From positions 1 to 64,000 of the forward strand of contig CP142729.1 in NCBI GenBank assembly GCA_036630325.1: a stretch of 64,000 nt of DNA, written 5' to 3'. A program made the translations under genes and the position numbers. Shown here piece after piece: positions 1,841 to 58,778 of the stretch. The notes under the pieces are model-generated. The model was given only the letters and a program-made list of their open reading frames with translations, searched no databases and was not told the DNA's origin. Source of the stretch: Vairimorpha necatrix. Taxonomy: Eukaryota. The stretch's first letter is position 1; each line of letters opens with the position of its first letter.

Positions 1841-2002
1841 CACGTAAGCTTTTAGCCCTCAAACCTTCGTGAATATTTTGTTTAAAAAATTTATTAGTTA
1901 AATCAATATGTAACTAAAATAAATAAAAATTGAAAATTTGTTGATAAAATTTATCTAACTATCTTTATAATTCAATTATTTTTTTTCAGATTAATGATTA
2001 TA

Positions 2003-5000
2003 TGTTATACATTTATTTAATAGGAAAGTTCAACCCTAACATCCCCCTCCAGACGTGTAGTCTCACGTTACAAGCTTCTAATTTATCATTTTATAATCTT
2101 TTAGGTCATAATGTCGTTTTTTAATGTATCTTTTGCTATCAGTCCTTACAATATAAGAATCATTCTCACACTTTCCCATTATTTTACCAACACTTGTAAA
2201 TCTTATTTTCATACATTTCATCTATTTACCCCAAGTTTTCTCTTCTTGCGATTCTCAAAGCCTGATCTACTTCAAATTTATCTCTTTCCTTTGTTTAAAA
2301 TTACTTGCATACACACCCTTTTTAACGTTTTCAATAAAGACTTCTTTTCCTTGTTCTTTACATGCTTCCATTGGTGTACATTTTATCGCTGTGTGTAAAA
2401 TGTTATAATAGGTTCTTAGCTTGTTCTAGTTTTTACTCTGGGTTTCCTTCTTTTTATTTAATCAATGATTCCCTTATTGTTCAAATACATCGTTCAATTT
2501 TCCATTGCTCTTATGAGCTTCTAAACCTACTTTCCATTGCATAATTCCGTTTTCTTAACACCAAGTTACAAACTTCTCACTGAGAAATTTCTTACCGTTA
2601 TCCGAAATATTCATCTGGGCATCCATCTTCATTTATCAAATATCCTAAAATTTTCGTATTAACATCACTTCCTCTATTTTCCATTTTTGCGCCCTATACT
2701 TTTCTTCTAAGTAGTCAATCCCTAATAGCAGGTATTTTTTGTTTTCCTCGATAACAATTACGTGTAAAGCTACTTTTTCTAATTTCTTAAATATAGTTAC
2801 AAAATTGCAACCTCCAGTCGTTTTTCTGTTATTAATGCACTATATTCCACAATTTTTTAGCGTTGTGGATATCAGGTCAAATAGCTGGTCAGTACAATCT
2901 TTGTTTTTCCTTATAATAAGGTCTTTTTCACTTCACGATGATTTAATTCCTCATGAACTCTGCGAATTTCTGTTCTCATTTATTTTTTTGTGTTGTATTT
3001 AATAATTTCTATTGTTGAGAACTTCCAATAGTTTTTGCCTTCTCTTTTAACCATGCGCTTTTTTTCTTTCCATTTAATTTGTTTTTGGTGCGTTTATCTC
3101 TTTCGCCTTTTCAATTACTTCGTTATTTTTAAATTGTCTACTAAGAGCATCCACATACATCATCAATTCTGTTTTTACATATTCAATAGTAAAATCGAAC
3201 TCTTGTATATATTCTATCCATCTCTTAATTATGTAATTATTAAAAAACGGTTTGTTTCTAATCTCGGCCATTCCTTTATGATTTGTCATTTATTGAAATT
3301 TTCTTCCCCCAAATCTGACTCGAATTTCTTTATTTCAAATAACACTGCCAACATCTCTTTTTCACTAATCGTATACTTTTTAGCTGTTGGTGTTAGCATT
3401 TTTGATGCCCATTGTATTAGAATCTACCTATCTTCCTTGTCTTCTTGCAGAAGTATAACTCCAATTCCCTTATCGCATGCACACGTTCTTACTCTAAATA
3501 TTTTTTTATCTATCTTCTATTTTTAATTTTTTCACATCCTTTAAATCCTCTTTGATATCCATAAAAGCTCTTTCCATATCTTGGGACCATTTTCATTTAC
3601 TATCTTTTTTTAGTGCTCTTGTAAGAAGCGCTGACCGATAAGCATAATGATGAATAAAATCTCTTAACCAGCCTGCCCGCTCCTCAACACTTCTAAGATC
3701 TTTTATGTTGTTAGGCTTTCTGTATTCTAATGTCTACTCCTATATATTTTTTCGGTTTAATGTCTTCTCAGTTAATTGTTACTCCAAGTAGTTTTTCTTC
3801 TCCTAATTTATATTGTATCTTTCTTGAGTTTACTTTTAATCCACATTCATTAAATTTTCGAATTACTTGTTTTAAAAAATTTTCTTGTATATTACTATCT
3901 CATGCATAAATAATAAAATCCATGTACACCTCAACACTCTTGCCTCTAAACTTATCTAAAACTCCGTTCATCACTCTTTGCATAATATGGGGAGCATTTT
4001 TTAATTTTTTACCATGCCATTCCATTCGTAAACTCTACCATTTATCTTAAAAGCTGTCTTATGTTTGTAAGCTCTCTCAATTTCTATATGATAGAATCTT
4101 TCCTTTAGGTCTATAACCATAAATACTTTAGAACCTTGCGTTGCTTTAATATGTCTCTAATCAATGGCAAATCATACGGATCTTTTTATTCCAGTTCATT
4201 ATAAGCCATCAAATTGCTTCTCAATTGTACTTTACCATTTGGTTTTTCTATGGGCTTTATTAGGCTTTTCCATTTGCTCTTTGTCTTTCTGATAATACCT
4301 CTACTTTCTAATAAATTAATATACTTTTCTAACTTTTCTCGGAGTTTATAAGGAATATTTTGTTTCTTTTGCACTACTTTTACTCATTGTTTTGTTTTAA
4401 AAGAACATTTTATCCCTGTTAAGTATTTTCTTTTCCCTCTGTCTTTTCACAATACCTCGAAAATTTTCCTTCTAATTCTTCATATTTATTAATATTTTTT
4501 CTTCTTTTATCTTGGTTTGTATTTTTTACATAAAAACTGTTTCTTGAGTTCTCTCTTTTTACCTCCACTGGTAGTCTCAATTTAAAATCAATTCATTTTT
4601 AATATTTTCATTTTACTTTTCCACAAATGCCAAAATATTTAACACTTTTATTTTCATTATTCTCTTCCTGTCTTCCTTTACGCTCCATACAACCTCTAGC
4701 TATATGTATAATTCTCCCACATATAAACCAATGTTTTTCTTCTCGTCTTTGATATTGAAAGTATCTTCCTGACACTGCTACAGTCCTAGTCAGTTATCCT
4801 TTCATCTTCTTTTTAATTTTTCCTTCATACCCTCTACCATATCTTCTAGTTCTCTACTCCTTATTTTTTCCTTGTTCTTATTCTCTTCCTCTTCAATAAC
4901 TAATTTATCAATTTCATCAATAATATTATTCCAATTAATCATAATGATTAAATTTTTATCAATAATAAAATCCTGAAGCTCAGAATTTACTTGTTTTATC

Positions 5001-5171
5001 GACTGCTTCGTTGTCTCATCTTTTTCTTTCTGCATTCTGATGATTGCTTCTACTCTCTGAGCTTCTTTTAGTAATTTTATCTTCTCTTAAACACAGGTCT
5101 CACTTGTTACCCTTTCGTCTTTTGTGTTTGCCATGTTATACATTTATTTAATAAAAGGTTCAACTTTAACA
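2003..5171 (-). mobile_element. Ty3/gypsy LTR retrotransposon, decayed, with 38-39 bp LTRs (copy A)
   Basis: LTRs at 2003-2041 and 5134-5171 (TGTTA...TAACA). 5-bp TSD TTATA at 1998-2002 and 5172-5176. PPT GGAGGGGGA (2050-2042) and PBS-like TGGCAAAC after the 5' LTR. Domain order gag-RT-RNaseH-integrase. Confidence 0.92.
2055..5134 (-). pseudogene. gag-pol pseudogene (Zn knuckle, reverse transcriptase, RNase H, integrase) with many stops and frameshifts
   Basis: Minus-strand fragments: FICGRIIHIARGC (knuckle); IPYKLREKLEKYINLLESRGIIR..IKPIEKPNGKVQL and EVYMD (RT); CDKGIGVILLQ, EKEMLAV, TNHK, RWIEYIQEFDFTIEY (RNase H); ISDNGKKF (integrase core). Confidence 0.9.
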
Positions 5172-8100
5172 TTATAATTAAAACACAAAGTATTTTTGGT
5201 GTAATTTTGCGAATAAATTTATGTAATAATATATTGTAAAAGTATGAAATTACTTCTTTAATTTGTAATATATTTCATTGTAAAAAAAAGTCATTTTTGT
5301 GTTTTAACATATTTCTTACTGGAAATATTCGTATTATACTAAAAAAAAATATTTTAGGGAATTATACAAATAACTTAAATCTCGAATGCTGTATTAACGC
5401 ATATATACAGACACAAAAGCTTATACTCTTGAGGAAAGCTTATGATAATCACTTTGAATAAAAAAATTTGATCATTATTCATAGAAAGTAAAAGGACGTA
5501 ACAATTTGTTAACATTAAGGAAAGATTCCAGTGTTTGTTTGAAAATACAATACTTATAACTAATTACATTTGTATATTTCAGTATAAAATTATGTTATAT
5601 TAAAATAGATCAATAGAAGTACTTAAGATTTATCAGATTAATATGATTTAATTAATTTTTATAAAATAAAATATTTTCGCAAAAATTTGTTCTTTTGAAT
5701 TTTTTATGAATATTTATATCTACTTGGCTGCTGCATAGGATGAGGCTTCTTCTAATGTACAATTCTATTTATCTATGTATTTGAACTGTCCAAAAAGTCT
5801 TTTAATATTACAAATGTTATTGTGTTTATTATTTATGTTCTCTTTGGGATTAATTTTTTATGGTAGAAAATATAATATTTTAAAAAAAAGAGGGAGTGAA
5901 GTTATTGGATAATTGAAAAATACATCCTATAAAAAATATATTTGATATGTGATCATAATGCCCAGGATATGTTTTGTTTGTACTTATAAATTTTCTTTTA
6001 TAACCGTAAGATTTACTTCATGCTTGATCTTCATATAATTTCAATTATGAAGAGAACTAGTTTGATATATTTTATAACCAGTTAAAATTGTTAAATTTTT
6101 GCGTAAAAAATTGCGAATAGTTTAAAAGTAACCTATCATTATCTATAAAAATGTTTTACATAATGTGTTATGTTTAAATGTTATTTTTTATGAATAAAAG
6201 TATTCATGTATTATTAAAAAATTTTAATTTTTTTATTAAATCATTAGATTGATTTCATTCTTTAAAAATCAAAATGTTTATTCCAAAAAAATTCATAAAG
6301 ATTTTTTTGTTTTCATATTTAGAATTTAATTTATCAATATATTATTATATTTTTTTAATCAATTAATATTTAAATTAAATTAAATTTTATAATTATTAGA
6401 AATCGTCTACTGCATCTATATTTATAATGTAATCGGGGTAATGCATTAAAATATTTTCTGTCATTTTTAAAGATAAGATTTGTTTTTTAATTTATATGTT
6501 CTTACATTAAATTTTTCTTAAATTTATATAAATATTTATTAATTAGTTGCATTGGGTTTGTTTATACTTTTTATTAACCCTTCAAGCTCTTATTGATTTA
6601 TATTTTTTTAATTCTTCGGTTAGTGTAAAATATTTGTTAATAAATTTACCAATTCTGTATTTGTTTTGTTTTAATTTTATCATAATTATAGTATTAATAA
6701 TAAATACGTGGAATATATGATGTTTACTAGAAAAATTCAAATGAAGAAATACGAAATTTATTTCCAGCCTACTTTTGTGTATAAATTTACAATTTGTATA
6801 AATATTGATTATCTTATCATTTGAAATGTATTTAATATGTTTTCTGACCATTATTAGATTTATTTCTTAATTATTTATCATTATTTTCATTGAAATAATT
6901 TTTTGTTTTGATATTTTATAATTTTTTTACAGTCTATAACCAAAAATTTCAAAATACTGTTGTAATAAATGATAACAGAATGAAATGTCGTTTGTTGTGT
7001 TCCTCTATATATGTTTATATTTTATTTTCGTTGTATGTCTTTATGTTTCTTTGAGACTTTACTTTTTATAAATGAATTTTCTTGATATTATGTGGTTTAT
7101 ATAAGCTACATTTTTATAATAATTTTAAAAACTTAAGTTAAGCATAAAAAAATGAGTTTTTAGATATAAAGAACATTTTAATGCTTCCTTGCGATAAATA
7201 GTATTTAATGTTTTACCATAAGAATAATTTAAATCATTTTTAAAACTTTATGAAATAATGATTGTAATTTAATATTTTTAATCTACAATTTTCTAAAACC
7301 CTCCGAGATATGGTTTCTTTTGAAATACAAATATATAAAAATTTTTAATAGATTATTTTTAGTATTTTTATAAATTTTTCGTTATTGAATCATATGTTTC
7401 TCGTGTAGGTTGTATATATCATCATGTTTAATATCTAGGTGTAATATATTGCATTTTAAATTTTCGATTGATACATTATTTTTAAAAAAAGATAAAGATG
7501 TTATATGTTCTAAAACTATTACTTATACTAATCAGTCGTATGTGTATTATTATGAGCGAAATTTGAAAATATAAAATTTTATAATGATCAAAAAATATTA
7601 TTTTCGTTATAGTGGTTGAGACTTCGCGCTTCAAAAGTCGTAAAAATTTAATTGTATAAAAATTTTCTTCTTTTCACTTATCTAGAATTTACTTTAACGT
7701 TTAGTTTGAATATTTTTTATAACTATTCTAGATATTAACATTAATTTTCAAAACGAGTTTTAGTCCAATACGTTTTTTTTTAAAAAAAGTTATCCTACTA
7801 CTTTAAATATATTTTTTTTTAATTATTTTTGTAATATTAACCTCAAATATCATTATTGAAATTGCATTTCGAAATATATTAGTTTTTTCAAAGATTTTTA
7901 TTGGCATTATTTTATTTTACTTGTAGGTCAATCTTTGTGTATTAAAAATTTATATTGAAGTATAACTTTTCTTGACCTTTTCATACTTAGAATTAATCTA
8001 ACGCATTTTATTGAACTATACAATATATAATATCAAAATTAAATTTCAATTTTTCTTCAAAAATATTGACTATAACAGTTATATAAAATTTTTGATTCAA

Positions 8101-11100
8101 AAAATTTAAATATCTGATAATTATAAGACAAAGAACAAAATTTTTTATTTTATAAGAGGAATTTTTAAGTTTTTCTTTTAACTAATAATATTTCATTTTT
8201 ATGCTAAATAATATAAATTTTTTGTTTTTATTTAAATATGTGTAAATGAATTCTTATATATTCTAAAAATTTAATTTCTTAAGAATACTTGTAAATTTCT
8301 CAAACTAACGATATATAAATATTATTTAGGTGTTTTTTCTAAGATTCTTATTTGTTTTCCCGAAGTATTATCATATTGTTAATATTTAATATATGCAATT
8401 CAAACTTTTCGAATTTTTTTATTTTTTTGTAAATAATCTTGAAAACGTCCAGGTGAAATATTATATAGTATTATAGTTAAGAAATACTTATTCTAAATTA
8501 ACGTGTTTTTATAAGTTTTTTAATTTAAATTAAGCAAGTGTTAATCATTTTATATTATGTTATTACTCTTTATATTATTTTAATTTATTTTCTGCTTAAA
8601 TATATAAATTTTGAAAATTATATTCCGTTAGCGTGTAACTATGGCATAAAAGATTATTTTATAAATATAGCATTTCATAATTAATTTTTTTATTGTTATT
8701 AAATGTATTGGATTTATATGCATTTCTATTCTACTCCCCTCATTATTTTTGTTTTATTTTTTTGAGATATGCGACGCCTTTTTCAAAATCTCGAACCCAT
8801 TTTACAGCAACCTTATATTAAATTGTATGAGCTATTGTTTTTATTTAATTATTCATAATTGAAAATAAACTTATTATTTCTTATTATATTATAATATGGA
8901 AAATATATTTAAGTAGGGGTTCCCTAGGATTTTTAAAATCAATTACATAAATGTCGTTTCTAAGTAAAATTCTTTTTACTGTTGCTGAAAGATTTTAAAA
9001 TGAATAGGTTTTATTTTATATTGTTAATTTAAATAATTTTCATCAATTCTTCTAATTATAATTAAATAAATGATTTTCTAATGATTATATAATTTTACGA
9101 TAATTGTTGATTGAATTTTAAATTTTTTTTTCTTTCGTAAATGAACTTTTTTATAATATTTCGATCTTCATACGTAAATTTTAATCTAAATATTATATAA
9201 AAATATTATACTTTACGGATTTAGAAGGTATTATATATAACAAAAGAGCAATTCTTAAATATATAACCGATAGATATTTGAATTGTTTTATTTTTTTATT
9301 TCAATTAATAATAAAATAATATATTTTTATAAATATGATAAAAGTATTAATGATTTTACTTTTTAGAATTTTTTGGTCATAATTTCTAATTTTGTGTGGT
9401 CAATATGATTGTAAACAACAAATTAATATTTGTGACAATTGTTTTTTACCAACTTCGATTTCAAAAGTCTACAATGTTTTATAATTGAAACTTCTTTAGA
9501 ATTCTATAAACCAAAAAAATGTAATATACGAGGTCAATCTTAATTAGTTAAAACTTTTATATACTTTTTGTTCTCGTTTTTTTAACATTAGTAATTATTA
9601 TACTTAATAACGTGTACATATTGGTCATATATAAATATAATATAGTTGATTTTTTAGTATAATTTTCTTTTATGAAATCGTCTGATATGTTCTAAAGAAT
9701 TGAAAAACTTCATTGCTTGTTTTAATTGTATTTAAATTATACTATATGCAATATTCGGATTTATTTTTGTTTATCTTGGCGGAGATTTAAATATTAGAAC
9801 AGTGTATTTCATCTAATATCTTGATCGTACATCTTTATTTTGAATTCTTATGTATTTATCTTACTAAGCAATTTGTATGAATCATATGTATATCTTTTCT
9901 TTATAATCCCTTTACTATCTAGTTATAATAAATGAATATTATTTGTATCACTTCTAAAACAGTGCTATATTGATCGTAAAAGAAATTTTATTTGTTTGCT
10001 TTCGTATTTATACCAAATGAAAAAGCGAAAGATCAAATTTAAATTATCTTGTTATTACCTACGTTGTAAATTTAGATAGATTGTAGAGTTCGTTTTAAAA
10101 ATATTTTTTCTTTTAACCAATATGCTCCTTTTTATTTTTTCTTTATTTCTCTGTTCTTCATAGATAAAACTTTGAAGACTAAAAATATTTTACTATTAAT
10201 AACTTTATGATTATGTACTTGCTTCATAGATATTCCTTGCCCTTCATACACAAACTTTTTTTTTAAATTTTATTTTTATTGTAATCATTTTTTAGCCACG
10301 TAAGTTAAAGGTTAATTATTTTGCATGGATAAACACATATTGTAAATTTTTCATTTTTTGTTGTATTATTGATGTGTTGGAACGTTGTTGGTGAATATTT
10401 GACAGAGTAAACTTTGAAAACTGTCCTTATGATGTAATCGTTATTACACACTTCCATAAAACCTTTGTATTTAGTTTATCAAGTTTTGGTTTTATAACAT
10501 TTATTTAAATACTTTAATGCATATACCAAAATTATTTTAGATAGATTTATAATCTTATTTCTTGTATATAAATATGTCCTAATTTATTCAACAAATATAT
10601 TGTTAGACTAAATTATATGTCTTAATTGATTGTTATATAGTGTCAGACATTTCTTGTAATTAAATCACTCAATGATTGTGTTTTAATTTCTTTTTGAAAG
10701 AATCTAATTTACTTGTTTTCAAAAATATGTTTTTACCTTGCAAAAAGAAGTAAATATTGCGTTTAATTAACGTATTTGTCCAAAGCCGAATTAATATGTT
10801 TAACTTTACTTCAATTTTTTATTTTTATGTCGATTCTGCACATAATGCGTTTCATAATTATTTTATATACAGTAAATTATATACTTACGTACTCATATGA
10901 AAAGACAAATAAATCTAAATTTCTTAAAATATTAATTATACAGATACATACGTTGGCAACCTCTAAAAAAAATGTACTAAATTGTGCAAGAAATAATTTT
11001 CGAAATAACAATTATAATATATATTCAGATGTGTGAGGCTGCAGACCTGCACTGACGAATCTTGTTTATAATTAAATAATGATTATTGGTGCTGTCAATA

Positions 11101-11459
11101 TCTCAGAGCATTGTAAATAAACATTAGACATGTTTGACATTCACAAACTAAAAGTAAGACAAGTGCATGTCACATGAAGTACTACTAATTCAGTAGAACT
11201 TCGGTTTCATGTTTGTTTGATTACATCTCAAAGAGTTTGACAGTTAATCTGATTGACTATTTAAACGGAATTTACCCCTGACCTACAATTCCGATGAGCA
11301 GCAAAACAAACAAATAATATAAATCAATATGTAAATTTAGACTCATCACTTCAACTTCGGATCAGGCTTCATGCCGGATATAAGATGTGTAGATACTCCC
11401 TAAAGAAAAAAAAATTATTAATTTGTCATATATTTATTTCTTGTTTTTATGTTTAATTC

Positions 11460-13429
11460 TTAGGTATTACCCGGGAGTTGGCCATTCCTCAGATAGCATT
11501 CTATAATGCTTCTCCCGGGTATTAAAGTTTTATTATAATGCAAGTTGTATTATTAAATCTGCCTCCTTGGGCTTTATCTTTCCTCTTCTAAGGATGCATT
11601 GATTGATACTGCTTATTTCTAGACTCCTCTGTTCTTATTGACATATTTTGGTGGGGGTAAAAATAAAAAGAAAATATTTATAGAAAAATAAATTCTAAAA
11701 ATTCATTTGGAGGGAAAATATAATAATGTGGCAAATAATACCACATACTACCTCCTGCAAAAAATCAGCAAATTAGAATGCGGATTCCTCCGAAATCATC
11801 AAATAGTTCTTTTCGCCGTTTCCTAGTAATAGCTGGGTTGGATATTCTAAACCTCAAATCAAGGTATGAGTTTAACTTATCACATTTAAGCTTCTCAGAT
11901 TCGCCCTTTACTCCATATCTACATATGCTAAATTGCATCTGCTGCATTTTATTTTTGAGGCAATGTTTTCTGAAAGTTCCAAGATTTTTTTTTTATTCTG
12001 ATAACTATCATATTTAGATGTTGCCAAATCTTTTACCTGTTGATGGTTATCTTTAATTTTATCAGGAGGCTTGCTTCTTCCTTTGTTATTTATTTTAATA
12101 TTTTTGAATATATATCATCTGATGGTATCGTATTCCCTGTCCTTTTCACAAAGTCAACAATATTAATTAAGACTTTAGCTGGAAGATTGTCTATTTTTTA
12201 TTCAAATTCCTTTTAATACAATTATCTATATTATTTATTCTTTCATTTATACATTTCTGTTTATTGATGATTTTATTTTCTTTTTGTTTCTGTTTTAATA
12301 GGCAGTCGGTTTTTATGTTTTTCATCCAATTCATCGTTAGGGATTTTTTTTATCATTAACGATTTTCCTTTTTTTTTTATTTCTCAATCGTGGGCTTTTG
12401 GTTTTCGTAGACGACAATCTCGTGTAGCATGTGATCTTGCTCGATGTATACAGCACCACTTATCACTTTTAAAGTATCTTCCTGTTTCTTCAGGTCTTTT
12501 ATAATTCTCTTTCTTAGATATAAATTGAGATATTCGTGTCCCTTCCAGTTTCGTCTGTAAAATTATATTTCTTCTAGATCTTGTGAATATTTTAATAGCT
12601 CGTCCATTCTCTTGTTTTTCATTCCTGATTTTAAAACTTCAATGGCAGTTGATCTGCCTAATCCTCTCTCAAAAATCTGTTTCAATCTAACATCAAATTT
12701 CTTTTTCGATAGGTTCATAGATAATCTGTATATTTCAATCATCGACTCTATTTTCTCATAGTAATCTGCTATACTTCTATAATTTACCTGTTTTACAGTT
12801 TCCATCTCTGTTAATAATAGCAGCATCATTTTTTGGATATCTAAATTCTAGTAGTTCTTTTTTTTGTTTTTTGAAGCTTTTCTTATTTAGCTTATCTTTC
12901 ACCTTAGAATCTTCAATCAAAGAATGGTAGATGAGTCTTATCTGCTCATCAGTCCATTTATTGGCCGTTCCTAGCTCTTTAAACAGCTCGAGATGCTTTA
13001 TGGTATAGTCTCGTTTTACAGTTTTCAATTTTTTCTTTAACCACTATTGTAGTTCCTTCTATGGTTTTATCAAATGTGGTATATGCTTCATCATCATTTT
13101 GTTTCTCAGTATTATTACTTTTTTCTAATACTAATGAGCTCATTGAGGTATTACCCGGGAGTTGGCTGCTCCTCAGTATTCATTCTATAATGCTTCTGCC
13201 GGGTATTAAAGTTTTATTATAATTAAAGTTGTATTATTAAATCTGCCTCTCTGGGCTTTATCTTCCTCTTCTGGGGATGCAGTGATTGATACTGCTGATT
13301 TCTAGACTCCTCTGTTCTTCTTGACATATTTTGGTGGGGGCAAAAATAAAAAGAAAATATTTATAGAAAAATAAATTCTAGAAAATTCATTTGGAGGGAA
13401 AATATAATAATGTGGTAAATAATACCACA
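11460..13429 (-). mobile_element. Non-autonomous (gag-only) LTR retrotransposon with ~286-bp LTRs
   Basis: Direct repeats at 11460-11745 and 13144-13429 (T[G/T]AGG...CCACA). 5-bp TSD AATTC at 11455-11459 and 13430-13434. Purine-rich GGAGGTAGTA next to the 3' LTR. Confidence 0.9.
12400..13143 (-). pseudogene. Frameshifted gag-like gene with a C-x2-H-x4-H-x4-C knuckle
   Basis: ATG at 13143, directly after the 5' LTR. ORF pieces 12777-13028 and 12563-12829, followed by KWCCIHRARSHATRDC at ~12465-12415. Confidence 0.7.
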
Positions 13430-13554
13430 AATTCATATTTAATATGGAAAAATATAGTTTATTCCAGAAAATAACATAATAAATACCATTGTTATAATAT
13501 ATATAAATAATCTTTATAAATATATAAAACATAATTATTATTATTATTCTAATA

Positions 13555-13770
13555 AAAATGAATTAATACGGGATATGCTAATGGTGTTTTATATTCTAGT
13601 ATATTCTTAATAGGTTCCGCATTAGCATCTCCTGTTTGTAGGCAGCTTCACGGCTCTTAGTCCTTTTTAAATCGGAACCTTCACACCTCTTTTGTAGTCT
13701 ATTGGAATGCTTTAGTTTGTCTTCTGTTAATCATCTTGATGTACGCTATTAAATTCTTAGAGTATTTGAT
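13555..13770 (-). mobile_element. 3' fragment of RLE-type non-LTR retrotransposon (family II), degenerate
   Basis: Similar to 31473-31775 (gcattagcatctcctgtttgta ... atcatcttgatgtacgct). Confidence 0.7.
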
Positions 13771-13936
13771 AGTTTAACCTATTTTTTATATTATATAACA
13801 CAACAATATTACTATTAGATTATTTTTTTATTCAAATATATATATATATATATATCTTTTTATTATACTCTATAAGTTATCTTATTTAAATTTTTAATAT
13901 ATCATTTTTGTTTAATCATAATATATTTAAAATATT

Positions 13937-31450: not shown

Positions 31451-31472
31451 AAATATTCATCTTTTTTTAATC

Positions 31473-48900: not shown

Positions 48901-49189
48901 TTGTTTGTATAAAAACAAACTTCATAAATTTCTACATCAAGAGTGCCATAATTGGCTTTTAGATCCCTATAATATATACAGCTATGGTATTTTGAAACAC
49001 AGAAGAACAAATTATACGTAATCAGAATTCGAATTGTGAATATATTTAAGAAATTAATGATCAATTCATTACAAGAGATACTTTTCATAATATTTGTTTA
49101 GTCTATCAATTTTGAAATAAATATTTAGTGACGTCTGTATGTCCGCGAGTAGATATCTTTATGCTTAAAATGAATTTAAATTTTTTCTT

Positions 49190-49252
49190 ACCGGGAATCG
49201 AACCTTAGACCTTCGATATCCCAAATCAAGGTGCAACCATTCTGCCAAGCAC
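49190..49252 (-). pseudogene. tRNA-like relic, duplicate of 22390-22456
   Basis: Same A-box and B-box. A 2-bp difference in the anticodon region; the 3' acceptor side is lost. Confidence 0.5.
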
Positions 49253-50009
49253 GATTATTTTAATTTTTGTTATCCTTTATGAAAACCATATATATTTTCA
49301 ACTTCCTTTAATTTTTGTTTTCTTTCTATGCATAAAGAAACATTTCATATTAGTCAGAACGAAAGATCATTAAGCGATTTAACCAAATAATAGAATAATT
49401 TACAATATTGGTTTTATGCTTTCTTATATAAAATAAGATTATATAAGATTTTCTTCGATCCGAATATACATTTCTAATATATATACATGTTATACTAAAA
49501 AATAATATACATTTTACACGGCAAAAACGAGTATATATCCTATATTATATACAAAATACTTTCATATGTGATCGCAAATTTTATGATGAACTGGCATCTA
49601 TTTCAATATCTCTATAATATCTGGCAATTTTGTTATTCTTATTTTCCATACCCTCTAAAGTAAATTTTTTTAAATAATTTTTTCAACAAAGTTAAAACTG
49701 TCATTTGTAAGAATATGATTAATATGTATTTGATCTGCTACAACTATATATGAACTACATCCTTTTAATAATTTCGACTACAAAATAATAAAAACATATT
49801 TATGTGATTTAACTAATATTCTTTATTGAGATTTTGTTTTTCTTAAATACTGTGATGTACATTACTACAACACATGGACAGATGTCAAAAATATGTCAAC
49901 CGTTTCGGATGGCATGTCAAGTTGGGTCACACAATCAAACGAAAGTTGCATGGTCGTTACTACATTCGTAAGTACGCCAATGTTTGTGTTTAGTGTTGAC
50001 AACATATAA

Positions 50010-50312
50010 AAAATTTATTAGCTTTATTTATCATTAAAGTTAGATTAGCACAGTTTATCTTGGTATCGTCACTAGATTCGGCTTTTCATAGACTTTGGTT
50101 TATGTGGAATTATTTATGTTTTTCAACTCCAAATTTTTAGCTTCATTCTCCTATACCGACATCGCTTGTTCAACAGTCGCCATATTCGCTAGTGCGTTTA
50201 CAGCTCTAACCACTTCTTCTTCTCCTGCAAAATCTTTATCATATCTTATTCTTCGTTCCAAAGAGATGGACTCTGGAGTTTTCTTCATCACATTAGACTG
50301 AATGTATGCTTT
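50010..50312 (-). mobile_element. 3' fragment of RLE-type non-LTR retrotransposon (family I), duplicate of 23211-23516
   Basis: EAYIQSNVMKKTPESISLERR..GEEEVVRAV on the minus strand. Confidence 0.82.
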
Positions 50313-52764
50313 TAGAAATGTTTAGATTTCTGCAGAATGCAAATAAGATTCTAAAATATTAATATATATTTACACAATAATTATATAGTTTAGAAATAAT
50401 GAATTCCTAAACTTTTAAAATTTTACAACTGTAACTATTATTTTAGAAAAAATATTTTAGTTTGACATTACGATTGATTTTTAGTAAAAATTTAATTAAA
50501 TTTTGAATTTCTTCAAAAAAAGCAAGAGAATTTAAAAAATTTAAAGGCCGTATTGTATTTCAAAAAATATTATCTGGTCATCTTTTTAATTGAGTTGTTA
50601 CTCTGTAGACAAAGAAAAATTAATAATAAATTTCAAAACAAGATCATTGAATAAAGAGTAATTAACATTTTTGTTTAGTTTTTGATTGTATAATTTTTAA
50701 TTAATTTATAAAGTAAAATTTGTTTTATTTTTGCTATTAAATCCTTTAAATTCAAAATCTACGCTCTTTTCTATATTTTGTTTATTTTAAATTTCCCTCC
50801 TAAAATATTAAATAAAATTTTTTTGTTTATGGGCAATGAGAAATCAAAGATTGGATTGGTGCAATAAAGAGATAAGACAAGTTTGGAATGACAATGAAGT
50901 TTTGTGAAATTAATACTACTATAAATAGAGTATTATACAATATTACATCACAAGACAGTCAATTTTTTTTCTGCTAGTGTAATAAACTCGATATTTTATG
51001 TTTATATTCTTTTTTAAGCTGAAAATGATGATACGAATTATATACTTCAGAATTTTGAGTACCGTTAGTTATACCAACTTCAATGGACAAGACCTTATAG
51101 CGCTTGCGCATCCCACGTGTCGCGAGAAGTTGAAAAGTTGGAATACAGATGTATACTCAAATTTCCGAAGTATTAAATTGTATAATAATCATTAGCTGAT
51201 AAATAAGATCATGAGCATAAAATAAAAAAAAATTACATTAACAGTGAAAAAACACGGGCTGTTACAAGAATTGTAATGCAACTTTTTAGATTAATTATAT
51301 AGAAGCTCTTCCGCTACATTAGCTTTACCCAAATTTAGCTATATAATCTATTGATTGATAAACATAAGGATCACCGGTCATATATTTCTAGTCCGTAGAA
51401 AATAATGATTTTAATGATCGCATTTATACCTAATTATTGCTTAATCAAACATAAGTATGATTATTACATAATCATTGAGAAGAATGTATGCGAAAACTTC
51501 TATAGATATAAGTTTACCATTATCTGAGCAAATGTATCAGGTATTAAAAGAGATATTGGAATTAAGATCAAAATTATGAATATTAGATTATTTGGAAACA
51601 GTTTTACTTAGAATAAAGGTGTAATTTTAGACATTTCGACTTTTAAATAAATTTACTTACTAATATTATTCATAGAGCATCAGTCTGATGAATTGTGTGA
51701 TATGTGTAAACAGGAGTATTTTGATGATTATTCTAGTTTTTTTATTTTTGATATAAGAATTCAAATAGATGATTTATGAAAACTTTCAGAATGCTTATAA
51801 TTTTTTGTGTCCCTTCCATATACTGATTTAAACAAATGTGAAAATTCAAAAAGATATCATATTAAGTGTTATAACACTATATGATAAACAATGAATATTT
51901 TTAATTAGAAAGTATTTATAAATATCCCCAATTCTCAATTTGCTTTTAATTTAAAATAGATGTATAAGGGTAAAATTTTAGAAATATCGAAAACAAAATA
52001 TTAGACAAAAAAGTATTTTATAAATATATATATATTTACTAGAAATTGTTATTAATGAGGTTTCTATATAAAAGATTGTGATGACCTGATTAAAAACATT
52101 CTCATCACATTGTTTGTTTACTTCTCTTAACAAATACTTCATGTTTAAGTAATAAGACGCTATACTCCGTTATAAGAATAATCTTTCTAAAACTTCTTGT
52201 TGTTTGTTTGTTTACAAACAAACATGTAAAACTATAAATAGCGGAAAAGCCCAAAAGGCATGGTGAGCAAGAAGGATAAAGCAAACTCAATTAACAATAA
52301 ATATAATAGTTTTGAAAATGTCTTTTATCTCATCGAGACATATCTCCGCCTACGATATGTCAAAGATATACAAAAAATATCAGTTCAAAATGTTGAGTCC
52401 TTTTTACTTTTTTTGATCTACTACTGATTTAACGAGTAACATTATACGATCAGATATAAAATATTTTCTCTAATAGAAAGATACTAACATAACAATCAGA
52501 TATATATATATATATATATTTCGTTTTAATTGAAGGTGGTCTACTCATCTCCTGAACAGGTTTGTCAATATTATCATATATTGAAAGTAAGTTTTTCTAA
52601 AACTATCCTTTATTAAAAGTAATTCTGATCTCGTAAAATCATGAGATATCTTAAGATCAAGATGTTGTAACTAATTTTATAATATCCTATATTGGGTCGC
52701 AAAATTCTATGTTATACTACCATAAGATATCGTTGGAATATAGTTATATTTCGACATAAAAATA

Positions 52765-52946
52765 AATGAATCTAATTAGGGTATGCTTATTGTAATTTAT
52801 ATTTATAGTTTGACAAGGATAGGTTCCGCGTTAGCGCCTCCTGCTTGTAGGTTGCTTCTTATCTCCATAGTCCTTTCCACATCAGCTTCGTATTCTCTCC
52901 TTCATTAGTCCAGAGAAATGGTTTGTAGCGTGATCATCTGGATGTT
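52765..52946 (-). mobile_element. 3' fragment of RLE-type non-LTR retrotransposon (family II), identical duplicate of 25965-26146
   Basis: Lies inside the identical tract at offset 26800. Confidence 0.75.
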
Positions 52947-54337
52947 ATTTAGACATAACATAATTTTTGTAAATATGACAATTCTTATTCAAGCTTATTT
53001 TTTTAGAAATTCTCATTAAATTATGCAAAAAATTATATATAATTATATAATATAAGTATCTTGATTTTGTAAGATGTTATTTATTTGAAATATGTCAATT
53101 TCTTTAATCTTATTTTCCATGCCCTCTCTTGGAAATTTTTTTTCTAAATACTTGTTGTAGCCAATTAAATCTGCCAATTTGTGAGAATATGATTGATCAG
53201 TATTTAATTAGCTACGATACTATCTACATTAAGTATGAAAATTATATTTTTTATAAAATTTCAATGTTAAATTCATATATACGTACTTATGATATTTTTC
53301 TATTATTCTTAATAGAAATTGTGTTTATTTACGATACATTTATATAATCGCTCCCTCGTATTAAATAAATAAAATATAAAATCTTCATGATATTTAAATT
53401 TCGTTTTATAAATATTAAAGTGTTGTATTTTTATACAGTATTGTTTTCCAATGGGGTATTGGTTGTTTTTTCTCCACAATTTTATTCTTTCTAATGTACC
53501 TCGATGTATTACAATAATAAGAATTCATCTTTAAATTCAAAAAATCTTTGTTATTGATTTATACACAAATTATATTCTGATTTGTTTAATTAAAAATCAT
53601 TTTATTCTATGTGTTGATACCGGCAATAATTATGCAATTGAATGTTTTAATTACATAAAAATACTTATATATTATTTGTTATTTTGAAAGTTCTATTATT
53701 TAAATACAATTATTTTTACTGCACTAATATTTATGTATATTTTTCTTGAATTTAAAGTTTTTATTTTGTACTTTTATATATATATATATATATATATGCA
53801 GATAGATACCCTTTAAAAAAAAAATTAAATCATGTATGTAATAAAGGTTTTAATTAAAATGAAAAAACTTCACAATCTAGTTACATATACTACATAAGTT
53901 ATTTTTACTAGTTTTTATGAGATGTCAATTTCTCCTTTTTTCGTGTTCATAATCTCTCTCATGTACAAATATACATCGATACTTTCCATTAGCCAAAAAA
54001 ATTAGAAATATTGCTGATACTTAAAGACTTGTATATATAATTAGATGTAATTGTAATTAAAATATAGATTGTTTCTGAAGTTTTTCAAATATTTAATCAT
54101 TATAATAAAAATTTTTACCAATTAGAATACATTTGTTAATTTTATTTTTATGTTAGAATGTTAAATCGTTAAAACGCCCACGGTTACACTAGAAACTTTT
54201 GGAATCATTCTGTTTTATAATCTTCATAATTATAACATACTTTGATTTACTTAAGAAAAAATAAATCATATAAACTAATAAGTACGCATATATATACACA
54301 CACATTCCTTGTTATCACATAAGACCGTACGATAATA

Positions 54338-55960
54338 TGCATTTTCAGCTGTTCTTAATTTTTTCATATTTTTCTAGATTTGTCTTCTTATATATATATA
54401 CAAGAAAGAGATGGAAAATTAACAAATTTCATAAAAGCTTTAAAAACAAAAAAAGATACACAAAAAGTACTTGTATAACAATAATGTGTATTTATATGTA
54501 GTCTTAGATGTTCTTAATTTTTTCATATTTTTCGAGATTTGTCTTCTTATATATATATATATACAAGAAGGAGATGGAAAAATGCCAAATTTCATAAATG
54601 CTTTAAAAACAAAAATAGATATTCAAAAAGTACTTGTATTACAATAATGTGTATTAATATGCATTTTCAGCTGTTCTTAATTTTTTCATATTTTGCAAGA
54701 TTTGTCTTCTTATATATATATATACAGGAAGGAGATGAAAAAATAACAAATCTTTTAAATCGCTCAAAAACAAATAAAGATACTCAAGTGTCACTTATAT
54801 AACAATAATATAGATTTATATGTAGTCTTAGATGTTCTTAATTTTATATATTTTTCGAGATTTGTCTTCTTATATATATATATACAAGAATAAGATGGAA
54901 AAAATAACAAATTCCATAAATGCTTTAAAAACAAAAAAAGATACACAAAAAGTACTTGTAAAACAATAATATGAATTTATATGTAGTCTGAGATGTACTT
55001 AATTTTTGTATATTTTTCAAGATCTGTCTTCTTATATATATACAAGAAGGAGATGAAAATTATCAAATTTCTTAAAAGCTTTAAAAACAAATAAAGAAAC
55101 ACAAAAAGTACCTGTATAACTATAATATGAATTTATAAGCATTTTCAGAAGTTCTTAATTTTTTCATATTTTTCAAGATTTGTCTTCTTATATACATATA
55201 TACAAGAAGGAGATGAAAAATTATCAAATTTCTTAAAAGCTTTAAAAACAAATAAAGAAACACAAAAAGTACCTGTTTAACTATAATATGAATTTATATG
55301 TAGTCTGAGATGTACTTAATTTTTTTATATTTTTCAAGATCTGTCTTCTTATATACATATATACAAGAAAGAGATGGGAAAAATCAAATTTCATAAATGC
55401 TTTAAAAACAATTAAAGTACCCAGGTGTCACTTATATAACAATAATATGAATTTATAAGCATTTTCAGAAGTTCTTAATTTTTTCATATTTTTCAAGATT
55501 TGTCTTCTTATATATATATACAAGAAAGAGATGAAAAATGGCAAATTTCATAAATGCTTTAAAAACAATTAAAGTACCCAGGTGTCACTTATATAACAAT
55601 AATATGAATTTATAGACATTTTCAGAAGTTCTTAATTTTTTCATATTTTTCAAGATTTGTCTTCTTATATACATATATACAAGAAGGAGATGAAAAATGG
55701 CAAATTTCATAAATGCTTTAAAAACAATTAAAGTACCCAGGTGTCACTTATATAACAATAATATGAATTTATAAGCATTTTCAGAAGTTCTTAATTTTTT
55801 CATATTTTTCAAGATTTGTCTTCTTATATACATATATACAAGAAGGAGATGAAAAATGGCAAATTTCATAAATGCTTAAAAAACAAAAAAAGATACACCA
55901 AAAGAAACTTATATAACAATAATATAGATTTATATGTAGTCTTAGATGTTCTAAATTTTA
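54338..55960. repeat. ~160-bp tandem satellite, 10 units plus a partial unit
   Basis: Unit starts at ~54338, 54497, 54660, 54821, 54982, 55138, 55299, 55458, 55616, 55774 and 55935. Confidence 0.95.
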
Positions 55961-56573
55961 AACATTGTTATTTCCTTCTTATATGTTTATCAAGTTATAG
56001 TTACTTATCTATAAAAAACATTTAAAATTATTTTTCTTTTAAAAATATCATCAAGAAAACCAATACTTCTTACTTTACATACATATACTATACATGTTAA
56101 TTTTTTTGTTTAGAAGTAAAGTTAATTTTCTTCTTCTTTCAAGTTCATTATCCTTCTTATATATACATATACATCTTTACAATTGATTTTTTAAATAGAG
56201 TATAAGTTCTGTGTACCCCAATGATTTGAATATATTAACCAATATTCAGATACAGTATGTTTCTGTTTGTTGTTAAAATACGTTATGTAGGGCTTTTTTT
56301 AATAATTTAGCTTCTTAGTGTATATAGTATATTATTGTTTTATAATTACAATTTAAAGGTTAAATTTCTACATTTACACTATTAAAATTATGGTTATTTA
56401 TTGACACAACTTCTTCATACATCGGTCATTTAAAAACTCAAAGGCCTAACAAACCATAATTGATGATCTAAATATACAAAAATATAAATAAATAGAAAAT
56501 ACTTTGCATTGCTTTGTTTTGCGGACTTAAATTGTTTCTTGAGTTAAGAATCGGTCTTTTCTAAATAAAAAAA

Positions 56574-56632
56574 TACCTAACCTACCACCTATACTACCTA
56601 ACCTACCTACCAACCTACCACCTCAACCTAAA
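56574..56632 (-). repeat. Interstitial telomeric tract (degenerate)
   Basis: tacctaacctaccacctatactacctaacctacctaccaacctaccacctcaacctaaa: CCTA/CCTAA/CCA units in the terminal orientation. Confidence 0.88.
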
Positions 56633-56899
56633 CTAAATTAGCCGTATCTCTTATTTAATGGCATTACGTTTGAGTTTAAAAAATTCCCAATTAAATTTGT
56701 CCTGAAAGACGTACTTATACTATAAACAATTTGTTATTTAAAGTGTTATCTTTAATTCGATCAAAACTATAATTACTATCATTTTTAAAAGTAAGATTTA
56801 GAGTTTAATGCAAAATTATAAAAAAATACCTTTGATCATATGATTGTATTCATTAATAATGATATTATATCATTCATTGCACTATAATATATTTTAGAA

Positions 56900-58778
56900 G
56901 TGTCTATCAGAGAGTTTTAATCTAATTCTTTTATAAAAAATATTTGAATTATAACAAAATAATGTATATTTGAGTATATATGCAATAGACCCAAGCTAAA
57001 TTTCGTACTAAGTCATCTATACAGAACAGAGTTATAAAAAAATTACAAAAGGTTCTGCAATACTATCCTTCGATAATAAAACTTTAATAAGTATTAGTTC
57101 GGTAAGGCAACACGCAAATAAAATAGAATTTTTTAGGATTCAATTGTAAGATTTGTTAGGAACTCCCAGTATACGATTTTAAGGGATTCAGATATAACAT
57201 GTGTAAAATATTAAATCTATTAATATATAAATAAAATTATATCGACATATCATATTAATTTATTATATTTTTTGAGTTTTATAGTCGTAACGTAATGCAT
57301 TATTATATTTTCAAATTAATGTATAGTTTTATTTTTCCGGTAAACACAATGATTTTTAGTATATAATTTTTTTTACTTTCTATAACCTGTATCTATCAAA
57401 TCATTCGTCATTTTGATAATTCAAATTCTTAACAAATAAATTTCATTATAATAGATAGCCAATTTTTGAGATTGTTTATGTTTTGATTCTTTGTATATGC
57501 TCAGCAACGAAAAAAGAAGGTAAGATGTATATAAATGTAAATTGTATTATCTCTTTAATTTTTTTGAAATTTTATGGATAACAAAAATAATTTGTAAAAT
57601 GAATTTTATGGTATTAATATTGCATTTTATTTTATATTTTGCTGGATACATTAAATTATCTAATAAAAAGTAGATATGTTAAATATTTATCTATAGCATT
57701 CATTTACCTATCTAAACATTTAACCAACCATCCAAACATTGCCTACGTAAGTATTTTTTTTTGTTCTTGAACATCTTCTTAACGAATATTTAAAATTTTC
57801 AATAATATGTATATTCCACACACTAAAGAAAAATTAAATATACTTCTTTGTTCTCTACACTACTCTATATTTAATCAGATATTGTATTAATCTTCAAATG
57901 AGTCTTAAATTCATATATCTTTAATATACTGTTCATGTTCACTATGCAATATTCATTAATGATTTAGTCCATTACAAATTTTTAATTAACATTAATATAT
58001 AAATATCTATAATTTATTAAAGAATTGCAGCCTTTATTTTCATATTTGAACTAGTTCTTTTCTAAAAAATACCATTTACATGTATGGCTTAACGCTATTG
58101 TATTTGCGATTTTATGAATATTAAGATACAATATTTAAGATCTAGTATTTTCTGAACCTGGATCAGGGTGCCGTAAAGTCGTGAATACAGATATATAATT
58201 TATAGGATTTTGAAAAGCCTAGGATGTGTCAGTCCTCATAGTACAAAAAAATGTTTCGGTCATATAAGAGGGAGATAAATGTAGAGATTAGAATTTTAAT
58301 TGAACTTTAGTATAAGGTTTGTTAAATATAATCGATTTGTTACAAAAATACAATCCATTACATCTAATTAAATTTGTTAAATCTTTAGACTTACATTTCT
58401 AATATTTTTCTTGATATCATGATTAAGAAAATAAATTTCTTTTCTGAGTAACAATTTATTTTTGTTTTGTGTTGATATTAAATTTATAAAAAATAAAATG
58501 TATTTTTTATTATAGATTTTCTTGTTTTATATATAATTTATAGAATTATAATGGGTTTTATATAATATTTTATAAATTTGAATCAAATAAATTAATATAA
58601 TATATAAGAGGGGGTTTGTAATTTACATTTTAGTAGCAGATTCATTTTTTGGATAAAAAATATGCACAAGAAGGCGAATAAAGATTAATAGTGATGTTTA
58701 TTCAGAAATAGTTGTGTGTTAATGTGATATTTATAGAAAATTATTTAAACAAAAAAAATAACATAATTTAAGGCTTAT
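56900..58778 (-). pseudogene. Decayed paralog of block Y (possibly LRR-like), truncated at a mini-LTR element
   Basis: Shared anchors with ~29000-30810 (tgcaatagacccaagctaaa; agaaggtaagatgtat; ataagagg..aatgtaga; aaaaaaataacataa). Confidence 0.3.

What the first reader, a model, noticed from the sequence alone, without database searches (positions are those of the whole stretch)
1841..58778. Subtelomere built from large modules joined by co-oriented telomeric repeats (telomere-X-ITS-Y-ITS-X'-ITS-Y')
Seen: every boundary of the X and X' modules (1840, 28668-28692, 32697-32718, 56574-56632) is a tract of telomeric repeat in the terminal orientation. X and X' start at the same nucleotide after the repeats. 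Similarity drops abruptly from high (X/X') to much lower (Y/Y') at the tracts. Known analogue: yeast Y' elements form tandem arrays separated by telomeric repeats, but these modules are 24-27 kb and show no helicase gene. Inference: ends grow by recombination/BIR or circle integration through telomeric repeats, with each ITS a fossil chromosome end. X would act as a telomere-bounded mobile cassette.
Basis: partly seen in the sequence, partly recalled or inferred. Interest (0 to 1): 0.85.

Follow-up and report, generated by a model that had tools for sequence, protein, structure and literature searches.

The report
Chromosome end built on fossil telomeres
This is the gene-free end of a microsporidian parasite chromosome, where a 24-27 kb block occurs twice and every block boundary carries a short leftover of telomere repeat, a layout long known from yeast and human chromosome ends.

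Summary
The window starts with 1,840 nt of composite (TTAGG/TAGG)n telomere. X (1841-28667) and X' (32719-56573) are direct copies, 92.3% identical. They start at the same nucleotide after telomere repeat and end at the same nucleotide before it. The only internal telomere-like tracts are 28668-28692, 32697-32718 and 56574-56632. All sit on module boundaries and all are co-oriented with the terminal tract. Identity falls to 69% (Y/Y') directly behind them.

New here:
- The taxon is a microsporidian of the Nosema/Vairimorpha clade.
- Every recognisable domain belongs to a transposon; no host gene was found.
- The X/X' length difference comes from two Merlin-type transposon insertions with 8-bp target duplications, an LTR element reduced to a solo LTR in X', and a 160-bp minisatellite (3 versus 10 copies).
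- X/X' identity is a mosaic of 86-100%. It includes a perfectly identical 3,407-bp tract, which points to recent gene conversion.

Best reading: each tract is a fossil telomere, and terminal segments were added distally onto eroded ends. X is kept similar by recombination; Y is not.

The layout matches yeast and human subtelomeres, so this is a new member of a known kind.

The parts
1..1840 (+). Terminal telomere, with the C-rich strand on +. It is a composite of 4-nt CCTA and 5-nt CCTAA units (TAGG/TTAGG on the G strand). The distal ~1260 nt are perfect and the proximal ~580 nt are degenerate.
   Evidence: 228 CCTA, 154 CCTAA and 20 variant units.
1841..28667 (+). Module X (26,827 nt), non-coding and full of transposon remains.
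   Evidence: Self-BLAST, boundary alignments, Pfam scan.
2099..4479 (-). Degenerate Ty3/gypsy pol remnant in X, with its 3' end towards the telomere. The coding end lies about 258 nt from the telomere junction.
   Evidence: tblastn of P0176, P0164 and P0171.
11462..13429 (+). Small LTR element in X. The LTRs are 11462-11745 and 13146-13429 (92.6% alike), and the flanking direct repeat is AATTC. In X' the same site holds a solo LTR.
13937..15087 (+). Merlin-type (IS1595/ISXO2 DDE) DNA transposon, broken ORF, 8-bp target duplication AAAATATT. The site is empty in X' at about 43161-43168.
   Evidence: Pfam PF12762 E=2.6e-14; junctions.
18837..20083 (+). Merlin-type DNA transposon with an open 251-aa frame (18972-19727), terminal inverted repeats and 18-nt subterminal repeats. 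The 8-bp target duplication is ATAATTTG. The site is empty in X'.
24254..27660 (+). A 3,407-nt tract identical, without gap or mismatch, to X' 51054-54460. It ends inside the first minisatellite unit.
27535..28077 (+). 157-161-nt minisatellite, about 3 copies in X.
28668..28692 (+). ITS1: a degenerate 25-nt telomere-like tract in terminal orientation, at the X|Y boundary.
28693..32696 (+). Module Y (4.0 kb). 28733-30817 is about 70% like Y' 56692-58777. The rest has no partner in Y' except a LINE-like 3' fragment at 31514-31756 (-).
32697..32718 (+). ITS2: a perfect 22-nt telomere tract in terminal orientation, directly before the first nucleotide of X'.
32719..56573 (+). Module X' (23,855 nt), the proximal copy of X.
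32936..35582 (-). Degenerate Ty3/gypsy pol in X' (gag zinc knuckle, RT, RNase H, integrase). It is nearly all in one frame but has many stops. Its end lies 217 nt from the X' start.
   Evidence: Pfam hits PF00078, PF17919 and PF17921, translation, tblastn.
42367..42651 (+). Solo LTR in X' with the same flanking AATTC as the full element in X.
54335..55959 (+). The same minisatellite expanded to about 10 copies in X'.
56574..56632 (+). ITS3: a degenerate 59-nt telomere-like tract in terminal orientation, at the X'|Y' boundary. It aligns to ITS1 with two gaps.
56633..64000 (+). Module Y' and what follows it. Similarity to Y runs to 58777. LINE-like RT 3' fragments lie at 62891-62980 and 63237-63587 (-). 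No further telomere-like tract occurs up to the window end.

Best explanation
This is a real subtelomere of a microsporidian of the Nosema/Vairimorpha clade, built by distal addition of terminal segments onto eroded telomeres.

Each internal tract is what remains of the telomere that once capped the module on its right.

1. An X-type block came to lie distal to the telomere of a Y-type end. That telomere is the ancestor of ITS1 and ITS3.
2. Much later, the end tel-X'-ITS3-Y' lost all but 22 nt of its telomere. It then received the terminal ~31 kb (tel-X-ITS1-Y) of a paralogous end, which left ITS2 at the join.

My odds for the joining step:
- About 45%: recombination-dependent copying primed in telomere repeat (break-induced replication from the short telomere into an internal tract of the donor).
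- About 30%: end joining of a broken terminal fragment to the short telomere.
- About 10%: integration of a circle through telomere repeat.

Since then X and X' have continued to exchange sequence by gene conversion, and Y and Y' have not. This is why similarity falls from about 92% to about 69% exactly at the tracts. X carries no machinery of its own, so its spread is passive.

Shown: positions, orientation, shared boundaries, mosaic identity, transposon insertions after the duplication. Inferred: every mechanistic step, the donor, and that X sits on many ends.
For: **Boundaries and tracts**
- Boundaries and orientation are as described.
- 4 of 4 internal matches to the 10-mer CCTAACCTAC lie at the three boundaries on the + strand. 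The expectation is 0.07.
- X and X' share both end nucleotides.
- ITS2 has the same length as, and differs at 3 positions from, the basal 22 nt of the live telomere at X.

**Exchange between the copies**
- X/X' identity is 92.3% against 68.6% for Y/Y'.
- X/X' identity is a mosaic of 0.86-1.00 per kb.
- One ungapped run of 3,407 identical nt lies among 1,931 differences.

**Real evolutionary divergence rather than an assembly duplicate**
- Two Merlin-type insertions in X have 8-bp target duplications and clean empty sites in X'.
- A full LTR element in X corresponds to a solo LTR with the same flanks in X'.
- The minisatellite has 3 versus 10 copies.
- Together these account for 2,939 of the 2,972-nt length difference.

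**Taxon**
- The named best hits are Vairimorpha necatrix (94% identity over 61% of the Merlin ORF) and Vairimorpha apis (73-78%).

**Literature (passages only)**
- PMC11592040 reports, for Nosema muscidifuracis, a composite TAGG/TTAGG telomere. It also reports ~20-kb subtelomeres conserved directly next to the repeats (27 sequences in two clades) and a GC content of 22.6%. The window matches these features.
Against: - No read-level support was obtained. Neither the joins nor the existence of other X copies was tested here.
- The X-start 23-mer was absent from metagenome contigs and genome contigs.
- The homology available for strand invasion is short (22-59 nt).
- BIR needs a donor that already has a telomere-like tract at the right end of Y. 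No such donor was seen.
- Y' shows no tract up to the window end.
- The right end of Y shows no homology to the right end of X, so nothing hints at the donor's structure.
- The unit proportions in this telomere are 58% TAGG and 39% TTAGG by unit count. The paper gives 75.3% TAGG, so the species assignment is not proven.
- The figure and supplement of that paper that show the boundaries could not be read.
Confidence: 0.7

Rival explanations
1. In-place tandem duplication. The X+Y unit of this same end (sister chromatid or homologue) was duplicated once, by unequal exchange or by fusion of a broken sister fragment to the short telomere. No other chromosome end was involved. X was later homogenised and Y was not.
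For: Both copies have identical X start and X end nucleotides and the same X-tract-Y order. Gene conversion between the two copies is evident. Y/Y' similarity starts 41 and 60 nt behind the tracts, so it is positional.
Against: Y/Y' at 68.6% is far older than even the most diverged 1-kb bins of X/X' at 0.86. Y 30818-32696 has no counterpart after Y' 58777, apart from a dispersed LINE fragment. Homogenisation would have had to cover all 24 kb of X and stop exactly at the tract.
Confidence: 0.15
2. Assembly artefact: two contig ends or haplotypes were joined falsely at the telomere repeat, or a repeat was mis-threaded.
For: Genomes of this clade are polyploid and assembled as several haplotypes (passages of PMC10759460 and PMC10133504, the latter with a manual merging step). 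A 3.4-kb identical tract could in principle mislead an assembler.
Against: - The join tract is only 22 nt and is flanked by unique sequence on both sides, far below any overlap an assembler uses. A false join of a telomere-bearing contig should carry a long tract.
- X and X' differ at 1,931 positions and by four structural events with clean transposon signatures, so they are not one collapsed or doubled copy.
- Both older tracts are degenerate, as expected of aged sequence.
Confidence: 0.08
3. X is a giant RNA-mediated telomere-attaching element. On this reading it works like the Penelope-like/Athena 'Terminons' of rotifers, or like telomere-specific retrotransposons, copied onto G-overhangs through a 3' stretch of C-strand repeat.
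For: Co-oriented short telomere tracts lie at the proximal end of each 24-27 kb unit, which is the geometry such elements leave (recalled, not from a call). X contains reverse-transcriptase remains.
Against: The only RT remains are a stop-riddled Ty3/gypsy pol and LINE-like 3' fragments. All are on the minus strand, opposite to what an X transcript ending in C-strand repeat would need. 0 of 140 frames matched a Penelope-type RT or GIY-YIG domain. The geometry follows equally from any distal addition.
Confidence: 0.03
4. The internal tracts are unrelated to old chromosome ends. They would be telomerase insertions at repaired breaks or chance microsatellites.
For: Two-unit matches alone are not very rare: 0.61 expected, with a maximum of 4 in 300 simulations. 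Similar composite tracts occur in unrelated DNA (L001 and L002).
Against: 3 of 3 module boundaries carry a tract and no tract lies elsewhere in 62 kb. All have one orientation. ITS2 abuts the same nucleotide as the live telomere does at X.
Confidence: 0.02

Closest known systems
Yeast (Saccharomyces) Y' subtelomeric elements in tandem arrays separated by short TG1-3 tracts. Details are recalled. The general statement that subtelomeric telomere-like tracts divide yeast and human subtelomeres is in a passage of PMC6410037.
   Same: A long block lies directly next to the terminal repeats. Further copies lie behind short, co-oriented telomere tracts. The copies are homogenised by recombination. 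Spread through telomere-repeat homology or circles has been proposed.
   Different: - X is 24-27 kb rather than 5-7 kb.
- It has no helicase ORF and no intact host gene.
- X and X' are separated by a 4-kb Y with tracts on both sides rather than by a tract alone.
- It comes from a different phylum with a different repeat.
Human subtelomeric duplicons (SRE blocks) with internal telomere-like sequence islands at block boundaries. Passages of PMC4032850. Flint 1997 and Ambrosini 2007 are known only as cited in PMC6410037.
   Same: Large, roughly 90% identical blocks. Degenerate co-oriented telomere-like tracts at boundaries. Sequence next to an internal tract resembles sequence next to terminal tracts. 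The architecture is a mosaic.
   Different: Whether X is shared among many ends was not testable here. There are no CpG-rich or CTCF-type repeat arrays. The content is transposon debris in a genome of about 23% GC.
Conserved ~20-kb subtelomeres and composite TAGG/TTAGG telomere of Nosema muscidifuracis (PMC11592040, passages).
   Same: A composite 4/5-nt telomere, a conserved block that starts directly at the repeats, a block size of about 20 kb or more, and GC of about 23%.
   Different: The passages read describe no internal telomere tracts, no tandem second copy and no gene-conversion mosaic. The word 'interstitial' occurs 0 times in the main text. Sequence identity with that genome could not be tested, and its supplement was unreadable.
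Encephalitozoon chromosome ends: TTAGG repeats, then TARE tandem repeats, then rRNA genes, then subtelomeres (PMC10158259, passages).
   Same: The same phylum, the TTAGG unit, and repeat-rich ends shared between chromosomes.
   Different: No rRNA gene or any Rfam family is found in the 64 kb. There are no TARE arrays next to the telomere. The blocks are far larger and hold internal telomere tracts.

Membership tests
Subtelomeric duplicons bounded by internal telomere-like tracts (human/yeast type architecture) | Large duplicated blocks of roughly 90% identity or more, next to a terminal telomere | tested here: met
   X/X' span about 24-27 kb at 92.3% substitution identity. X starts at nt 1841, directly after the telomere.
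Subtelomeric duplicons bounded by internal telomere-like tracts (human/yeast type architecture) | Telomere-like tracts at block boundaries, co-oriented with the terminal tract | tested here: met
   3 of 3 boundaries carry a tract. 4 of 4 internal 10-mer matches are on the + strand.
Subtelomeric duplicons bounded by internal telomere-like tracts (human/yeast type architecture) | Blocks shared among several chromosome ends | not testable with these tools
Pattern scans of two collections found nothing related. Only a published statement for a species with matching features is available.
Yeast Y' element family | Helicase-encoding ORF | tested here: not met
   0 of 140 frames of at least 58 aa hit a helicase domain in Pfam.
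Yeast Y' element family | Copies joined head to tail by a telomere tract alone | tested here: not met
   A 4.0-kb Y with tracts on both sides separates X and X'.
Terminon / Athena-type telomere-attaching retroelements | Penelope-like reverse transcriptase on the strand that ends in C-strand telomere repeat | tested here: not met
   The only RT remains are Ty3/gypsy and LINE-like, and all are on the minus strand.
Nosema muscidifuracis-type conserved subtelomere | Composite TAGG/TTAGG telomere followed at once by a conserved block of about 20 kb | tested here: inconclusive
   The composite telomere (228 + 154 units) and the block are present. The unit proportions differ from the published 75.3% TAGG, and no sequence comparison was possible.
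Autonomous giant transposon (any class) | An own transposase, recombinase or RT spanning the unit, with target-site duplication at the unit ends | tested here: not met
   The only open transposase belongs to a 1.2-kb Merlin-type insertion that is absent from X'. The ends of X are telomere tracts, not target-site duplications.

The most novel reading that the evidence does not exclude
Chromosome ends of this polyploid, probably asexual parasite may be maintained partly by an ALT-like, recombination-based route. In it, short internal telomere tracts would act as docking sites that let a ~25-kb gene-free cassette (X) be copied from end to end and kept uniform. The 3.4-kb identical tract would be a footprint of ongoing exchange. 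The telomere at every end would then sit on the same retrotransposon 3' end.
Probability: 0.25. Interest if true: 0.6.

Novelty: new member of a known kind. Interest (0 to 1): 0.4.

Why it matters
Microsporidian genome papers describe chromosome ends mostly as telomere plus repeats or rRNA genes. In the texts I could search, internal telomere tracts at block boundaries are not mentioned for this phylum:
- A search for 'microsporidia' plus 'interstitial telomeric' gave 2 papers. By title and abstract start, one concerns rDNA and transposable elements and the other butterfly chromosomes.
- The word 'interstitial' occurs 0 times in PMC11592040, PMC10158259 and PMC13174016.

A clean example with datable internal markers could serve as a small model of how subtelomeres grow and stay uniform in a reduced, polyploid eukaryote. 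The markers are transposon insertions, a solo LTR and conversion tracts. It would also help those who assemble and check such chromosome ends. It does not change the general picture, which was drawn from yeast and human.

Tried and rejected
- **Whole genome.** None is held.
- **Read support.**
  - The look-up of sequencing runs listed two coded runs holding shares of 0.52 and 0.13 of the sampled words.
Nothing can be said from reads.
- **Alternative genetic codes.** Ciliate-type codes open many frames, as they would in any AT-rich DNA. I dropped this once transposon domains and microsporidian hits appeared under the standard code.
- **RNA genes.** There were no Rfam matches and no tRNAs in the 64 kb.
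- **Pattern scans of public collections.**
  - The X-start 23-mer gave 0 hits in metagenome contigs and 0 in genome contigs.
  - A 31-nt piece of the composite telomere gave one hit in each collection (L001, L002). Both have GC-rich unrelated flanks and say nothing about X.
- **Earlier findings of this scan.** Three look-ups returned nothing.
- **Is the right end of Y an old X right end?** A shared ATACT before each tract suggested this, but local alignment scores (40 and 43) lay within the shuffles (mean about 37, maximum 52-55). I rejected the idea.
- **LTR pair of the gypsy remnant.** Only a ~41-nt motif is shared between its 5' and 3' sides. It therefore stays open whether the telomere junction is the true LTR end or a break within it.
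- **Homologue searches.** A 'longer' search with the integrase fragment found nothing. The RT fragment search supplied P0176 for mapping.
- **Supplement of PMC11592040.** Only 155 characters were readable and no search term was found.
- **Literature search on yeast Y'.** It failed on syntax and was not repeated, so the Y' details are recalled.

Full report
**What is there**

The window begins with 1,840 nt of telomere, C-rich strand on +.
- It parses into 228 CCTA and 154 CCTAA units plus 20 variants.
- It is perfect for about 1,260 nt and degenerate in the 580 nt nearest the chromosome body.
- The rest of the window has 18-31% GC.
- Under the standard code only 2 ATG-started ORFs reach 150 aa.

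**Taxon**

- The open 251-aa frame at 18972-19724 is an IS1595/ISXO2-type DDE transposase (Pfam PF12762). Its best named relative is a Vairimorpha necatrix protein, at 94% identity over 61% of the query.
- The frame at 63084-63596 is the C-terminus of a ~1,150-aa reverse transcriptase family. Its named members are from Vairimorpha apis (73-78% identity) and Hamiltosporidium. None of the 107 hits was named V. necatrix.
- The window is therefore a microsporidian chromosome end of the Nosema/Vairimorpha clade.
- Passages of PMC11592040 describe three features for Nosema muscidifuracis:
  - a composite TAGG/TTAGG telomere, called unreported elsewhere in microsporidia;
  - ~20-kb subtelomeres conserved directly next to the repeats (27 sequences in two clades);
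  - a GC content of 22.6%.
- The window fits these features, but the unit proportions differ. Here TAGG makes up 58% of units, against 75.3% in the paper, which may count differently.
- No sequence comparison was possible, so I treat the species as likely, not shown.
- V. necatrix is reported with a plain 5-mer repeat and 28.3% GC (PMC10759460 passages; PMC12449221 passages).

- Self-BLAST gives 41 HSPs of at least 150 nt, none inverted.
- X (1841-28667) and X' (32719-56573) are collinear direct copies.
- Both start at the same nucleotide after CCTAA. Both end at the same nucleotide before a telomere-like tract.
- The only telomere-like tracts outside the terminus are 28668-28692 (degenerate, 25 nt), 32697-32718 (perfect, 22 nt) and 56574-56632 (degenerate, 59 nt).
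- The 10-mer CCTAACCTAC matches 4 times internally. All 4 matches are on + and all lie in these tracts, against 0.07 expected per shuffle.
- A looser two-unit pattern is less striking: 4 observed, 0.61 expected, maximum 4 in 300 simulations.
- Identity is 92.3% over X/X' and 92.3% in the last 620 nt of X. It is 68.6% over Y/Y' (28693-30817 versus 56633-58777).
- The Y/Y' similarity starts 41 and 60 nt behind the tracts, so it is positional rather than a shared transposon.

**Content of the modules**

I scanned 140 stop-to-stop frames of at least 58 aa against Pfam. Hits that reach Pfam's own cut-off, or that tblastn confirms, are all transposon domains: the IS1595 DDE domain, reverse transcriptase, RNase H and the integrase zinc domain. 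Three further weak matches at E of 0.002-0.008, below the cut-offs, I take as chance. No helicase appeared. There is no Rfam family and no tRNA.

- **Gypsy remnant.**
  - The distal ~4 kb of X and X' is one stop-riddled Ty3/gypsy element on the minus strand.
  - Its pol maps to 35582-32936 in X' and 4479-2099 in X.
  - It ends 217 and 258 nt from the telomere junction.
  - Only a ~41-nt motif links its two sides, so it stays open whether the telomere sits on the true LTR end or on a break.
- **LINE-like fragments.** 3' fragments lie at 23440-23571, 31514-31756, 50187-50345, 62891-62980 and 63237-63587, all on the minus strand.

**Why X and X' differ in length**

X is 26,827 nt and X' is 23,855 nt, a difference of 2,972.
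- X carries two Merlin-type transposons, at 13937-15087 and 18837-20083. Each has an 8-bp target duplication and a clean empty site in X'.
- X carries a small LTR element at 11462-13429 with AATTC on both flanks. X' has a solo LTR with the same flanks at 42367-42651.
- A 157-161-nt minisatellite has about 3 copies in X and about 10 in X'.
- These four events account for 2,939 nt of the difference.
- They are ordinary evolutionary changes after the duplication, which argues strongly against a doubled or collapsed assembly.

**Mosaic identity**

- Per-kb identity of X/X' runs from 0.86 to 1.00 with no gradient from the telomere.
- There are 1,931 differences in total.
- One ungapped run of 3,407 nt (24254-27660 = 51054-54460) has none. 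It is flanked by sequence with about 10-14% differences and ends inside the first minisatellite unit.
- A second stretch, about 8.0-9.25 kb, has only 1-2% differences.
- I read these as gene-conversion tracts of different ages. It is my inference that the minisatellite may be where the last event started.

**How it most likely arose**

- At a left chromosome end the top strand carries the C-rich repeat. All three internal tracts have this sense, so each belongs, as a former cap, to the module on its right.
- ITS2 is colinear with the basal 22 nt of the live telomere at X, with three substitutions and no gap.
- The X-tract-Y junction has the same nucleotides in both copies, so two joining events suffice:
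  1. An old event put an X-type block distal to a Y-type end.
  2. A later event put tel-X-ITS1-Y onto the eroded telomere of X'.
- Y/Y' is much older than X/X'. Either the donor of the second event was a paralogous end, or X has been homogenised throughout, or both. The conversion tracts show that homogenisation does occur.
- The joining chemistry is not resolved. Candidates are BIR primed in telomere repeat, end joining of a broken terminal fragment to a short telomere, or circle integration.
- The right end of Y gives no clue. The window ends before a possible tract at the right of Y' could be seen.

**Rivals**

- **In-place duplication of X+Y (0.15).** It fits the shared boundaries. It fits poorly with the age gap and with the unmatched right half of Y.
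- **Assembly mis-join (0.08).** It is unlikely because the join tract is 22 nt between unique flanks and the copies are well diverged.
- **RNA-mediated Terminon-like element (0.03).** It is disfavoured because all RT remains are dead and on the wrong strand.
- **Tracts unrelated to old ends (0.02).** This does not explain 3 of 3 boundaries, the single orientation and the shared junction nucleotide.

**Comparison with what is known**

- Passages of PMC4032850 show internal telomere-like islands at boundaries of human subtelomeric repeat blocks. The sequence next to them resembles subterminal sequence.
- Yeast Y' arrays, Y' circles and rotifer Terminons are recalled from memory, not from a call.
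- The present case works like these but is not a Y' element, since it has no helicase and is not directly tandem. It is not a Terminon either.
- For microsporidia I found no description of internal telomere tracts at block boundaries (search; 'interstitial' 0 times in the main texts searched). The figure and supplement of PMC11592040, which I could not read, may bear on this.

**Verdict**

This is a new member of a known kind, of moderate interest. The most useful additions are the gene-conversion mosaic and the internal transposon markers. What remains open is read-level confirmation and the census of X and Y copies at the other ends.

Noticed in passing
window 18837-20083: A Merlin-type (IS1595 DDE) DNA transposon that looks intact. 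It has an open 251-aa frame, an 8-bp target duplication, inverted ends and 18-nt subterminal repeats, and it is absent from the empty site in X'. Part of its protein is 94% identical to a Vairimorpha necatrix protein. This suggests recent activity, or transfer between species of the clade.
   Followed up: partly
window 2099-4479, 23440-23571, 31514-31756, 62891-62980, 63237-63587 (with X' copies 32936-35582 and 50187-50345): Every retroelement remnant found (one gypsy and four independent LINE-like 3' fragments) lies on the minus strand, with its 3' end towards the telomere. Five of five could still be chance (about 0.06 two-sided).
   Followed up: no
window 1260-1840: The basal ~580 nt of the telomere carry variant units (8 CCTAC-type units, plus CCCTA, CCACC and others). 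The distal 1,260 nt are pure CCTA/CCTAA in an irregular order. Runs of the 4-nt unit reach six and runs of the 5-nt unit reach five, which suggests variable template use by telomerase.
   Followed up: no
window 1841-64000: No host protein-coding gene, tRNA or rRNA gene was recognised within 62 kb of the telomere. This contrasts with Encephalitozoon ends, where rRNA genes follow the telomere-associated repeats.
   Followed up: partly
window 27535-28077 and 54335-55959: A 157-161-nt minisatellite lies about 600 nt distal to the X-side tracts, with 3 versus 10 copies. The perfect-identity tract stops inside its first unit.
   Followed up: partly
L001 1-1233: A 1,233-nt metagenome contig whose two ends repeat each other (about 1-130 = 1104-1233), so it is probably circular. 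It holds a ~190-nt composite TTAGG/TAGG tract framed by CCGGCCGGG-type inverted motifs and is unrelated to the window.
   Followed up: no
L002 1940-2035: An archaeal MAG contig with about 95 nt of the same composite TTAGG/TAGG repeat in an intergenic stretch. This shows that such tracts occur outside telomeres.
   Followed up: no
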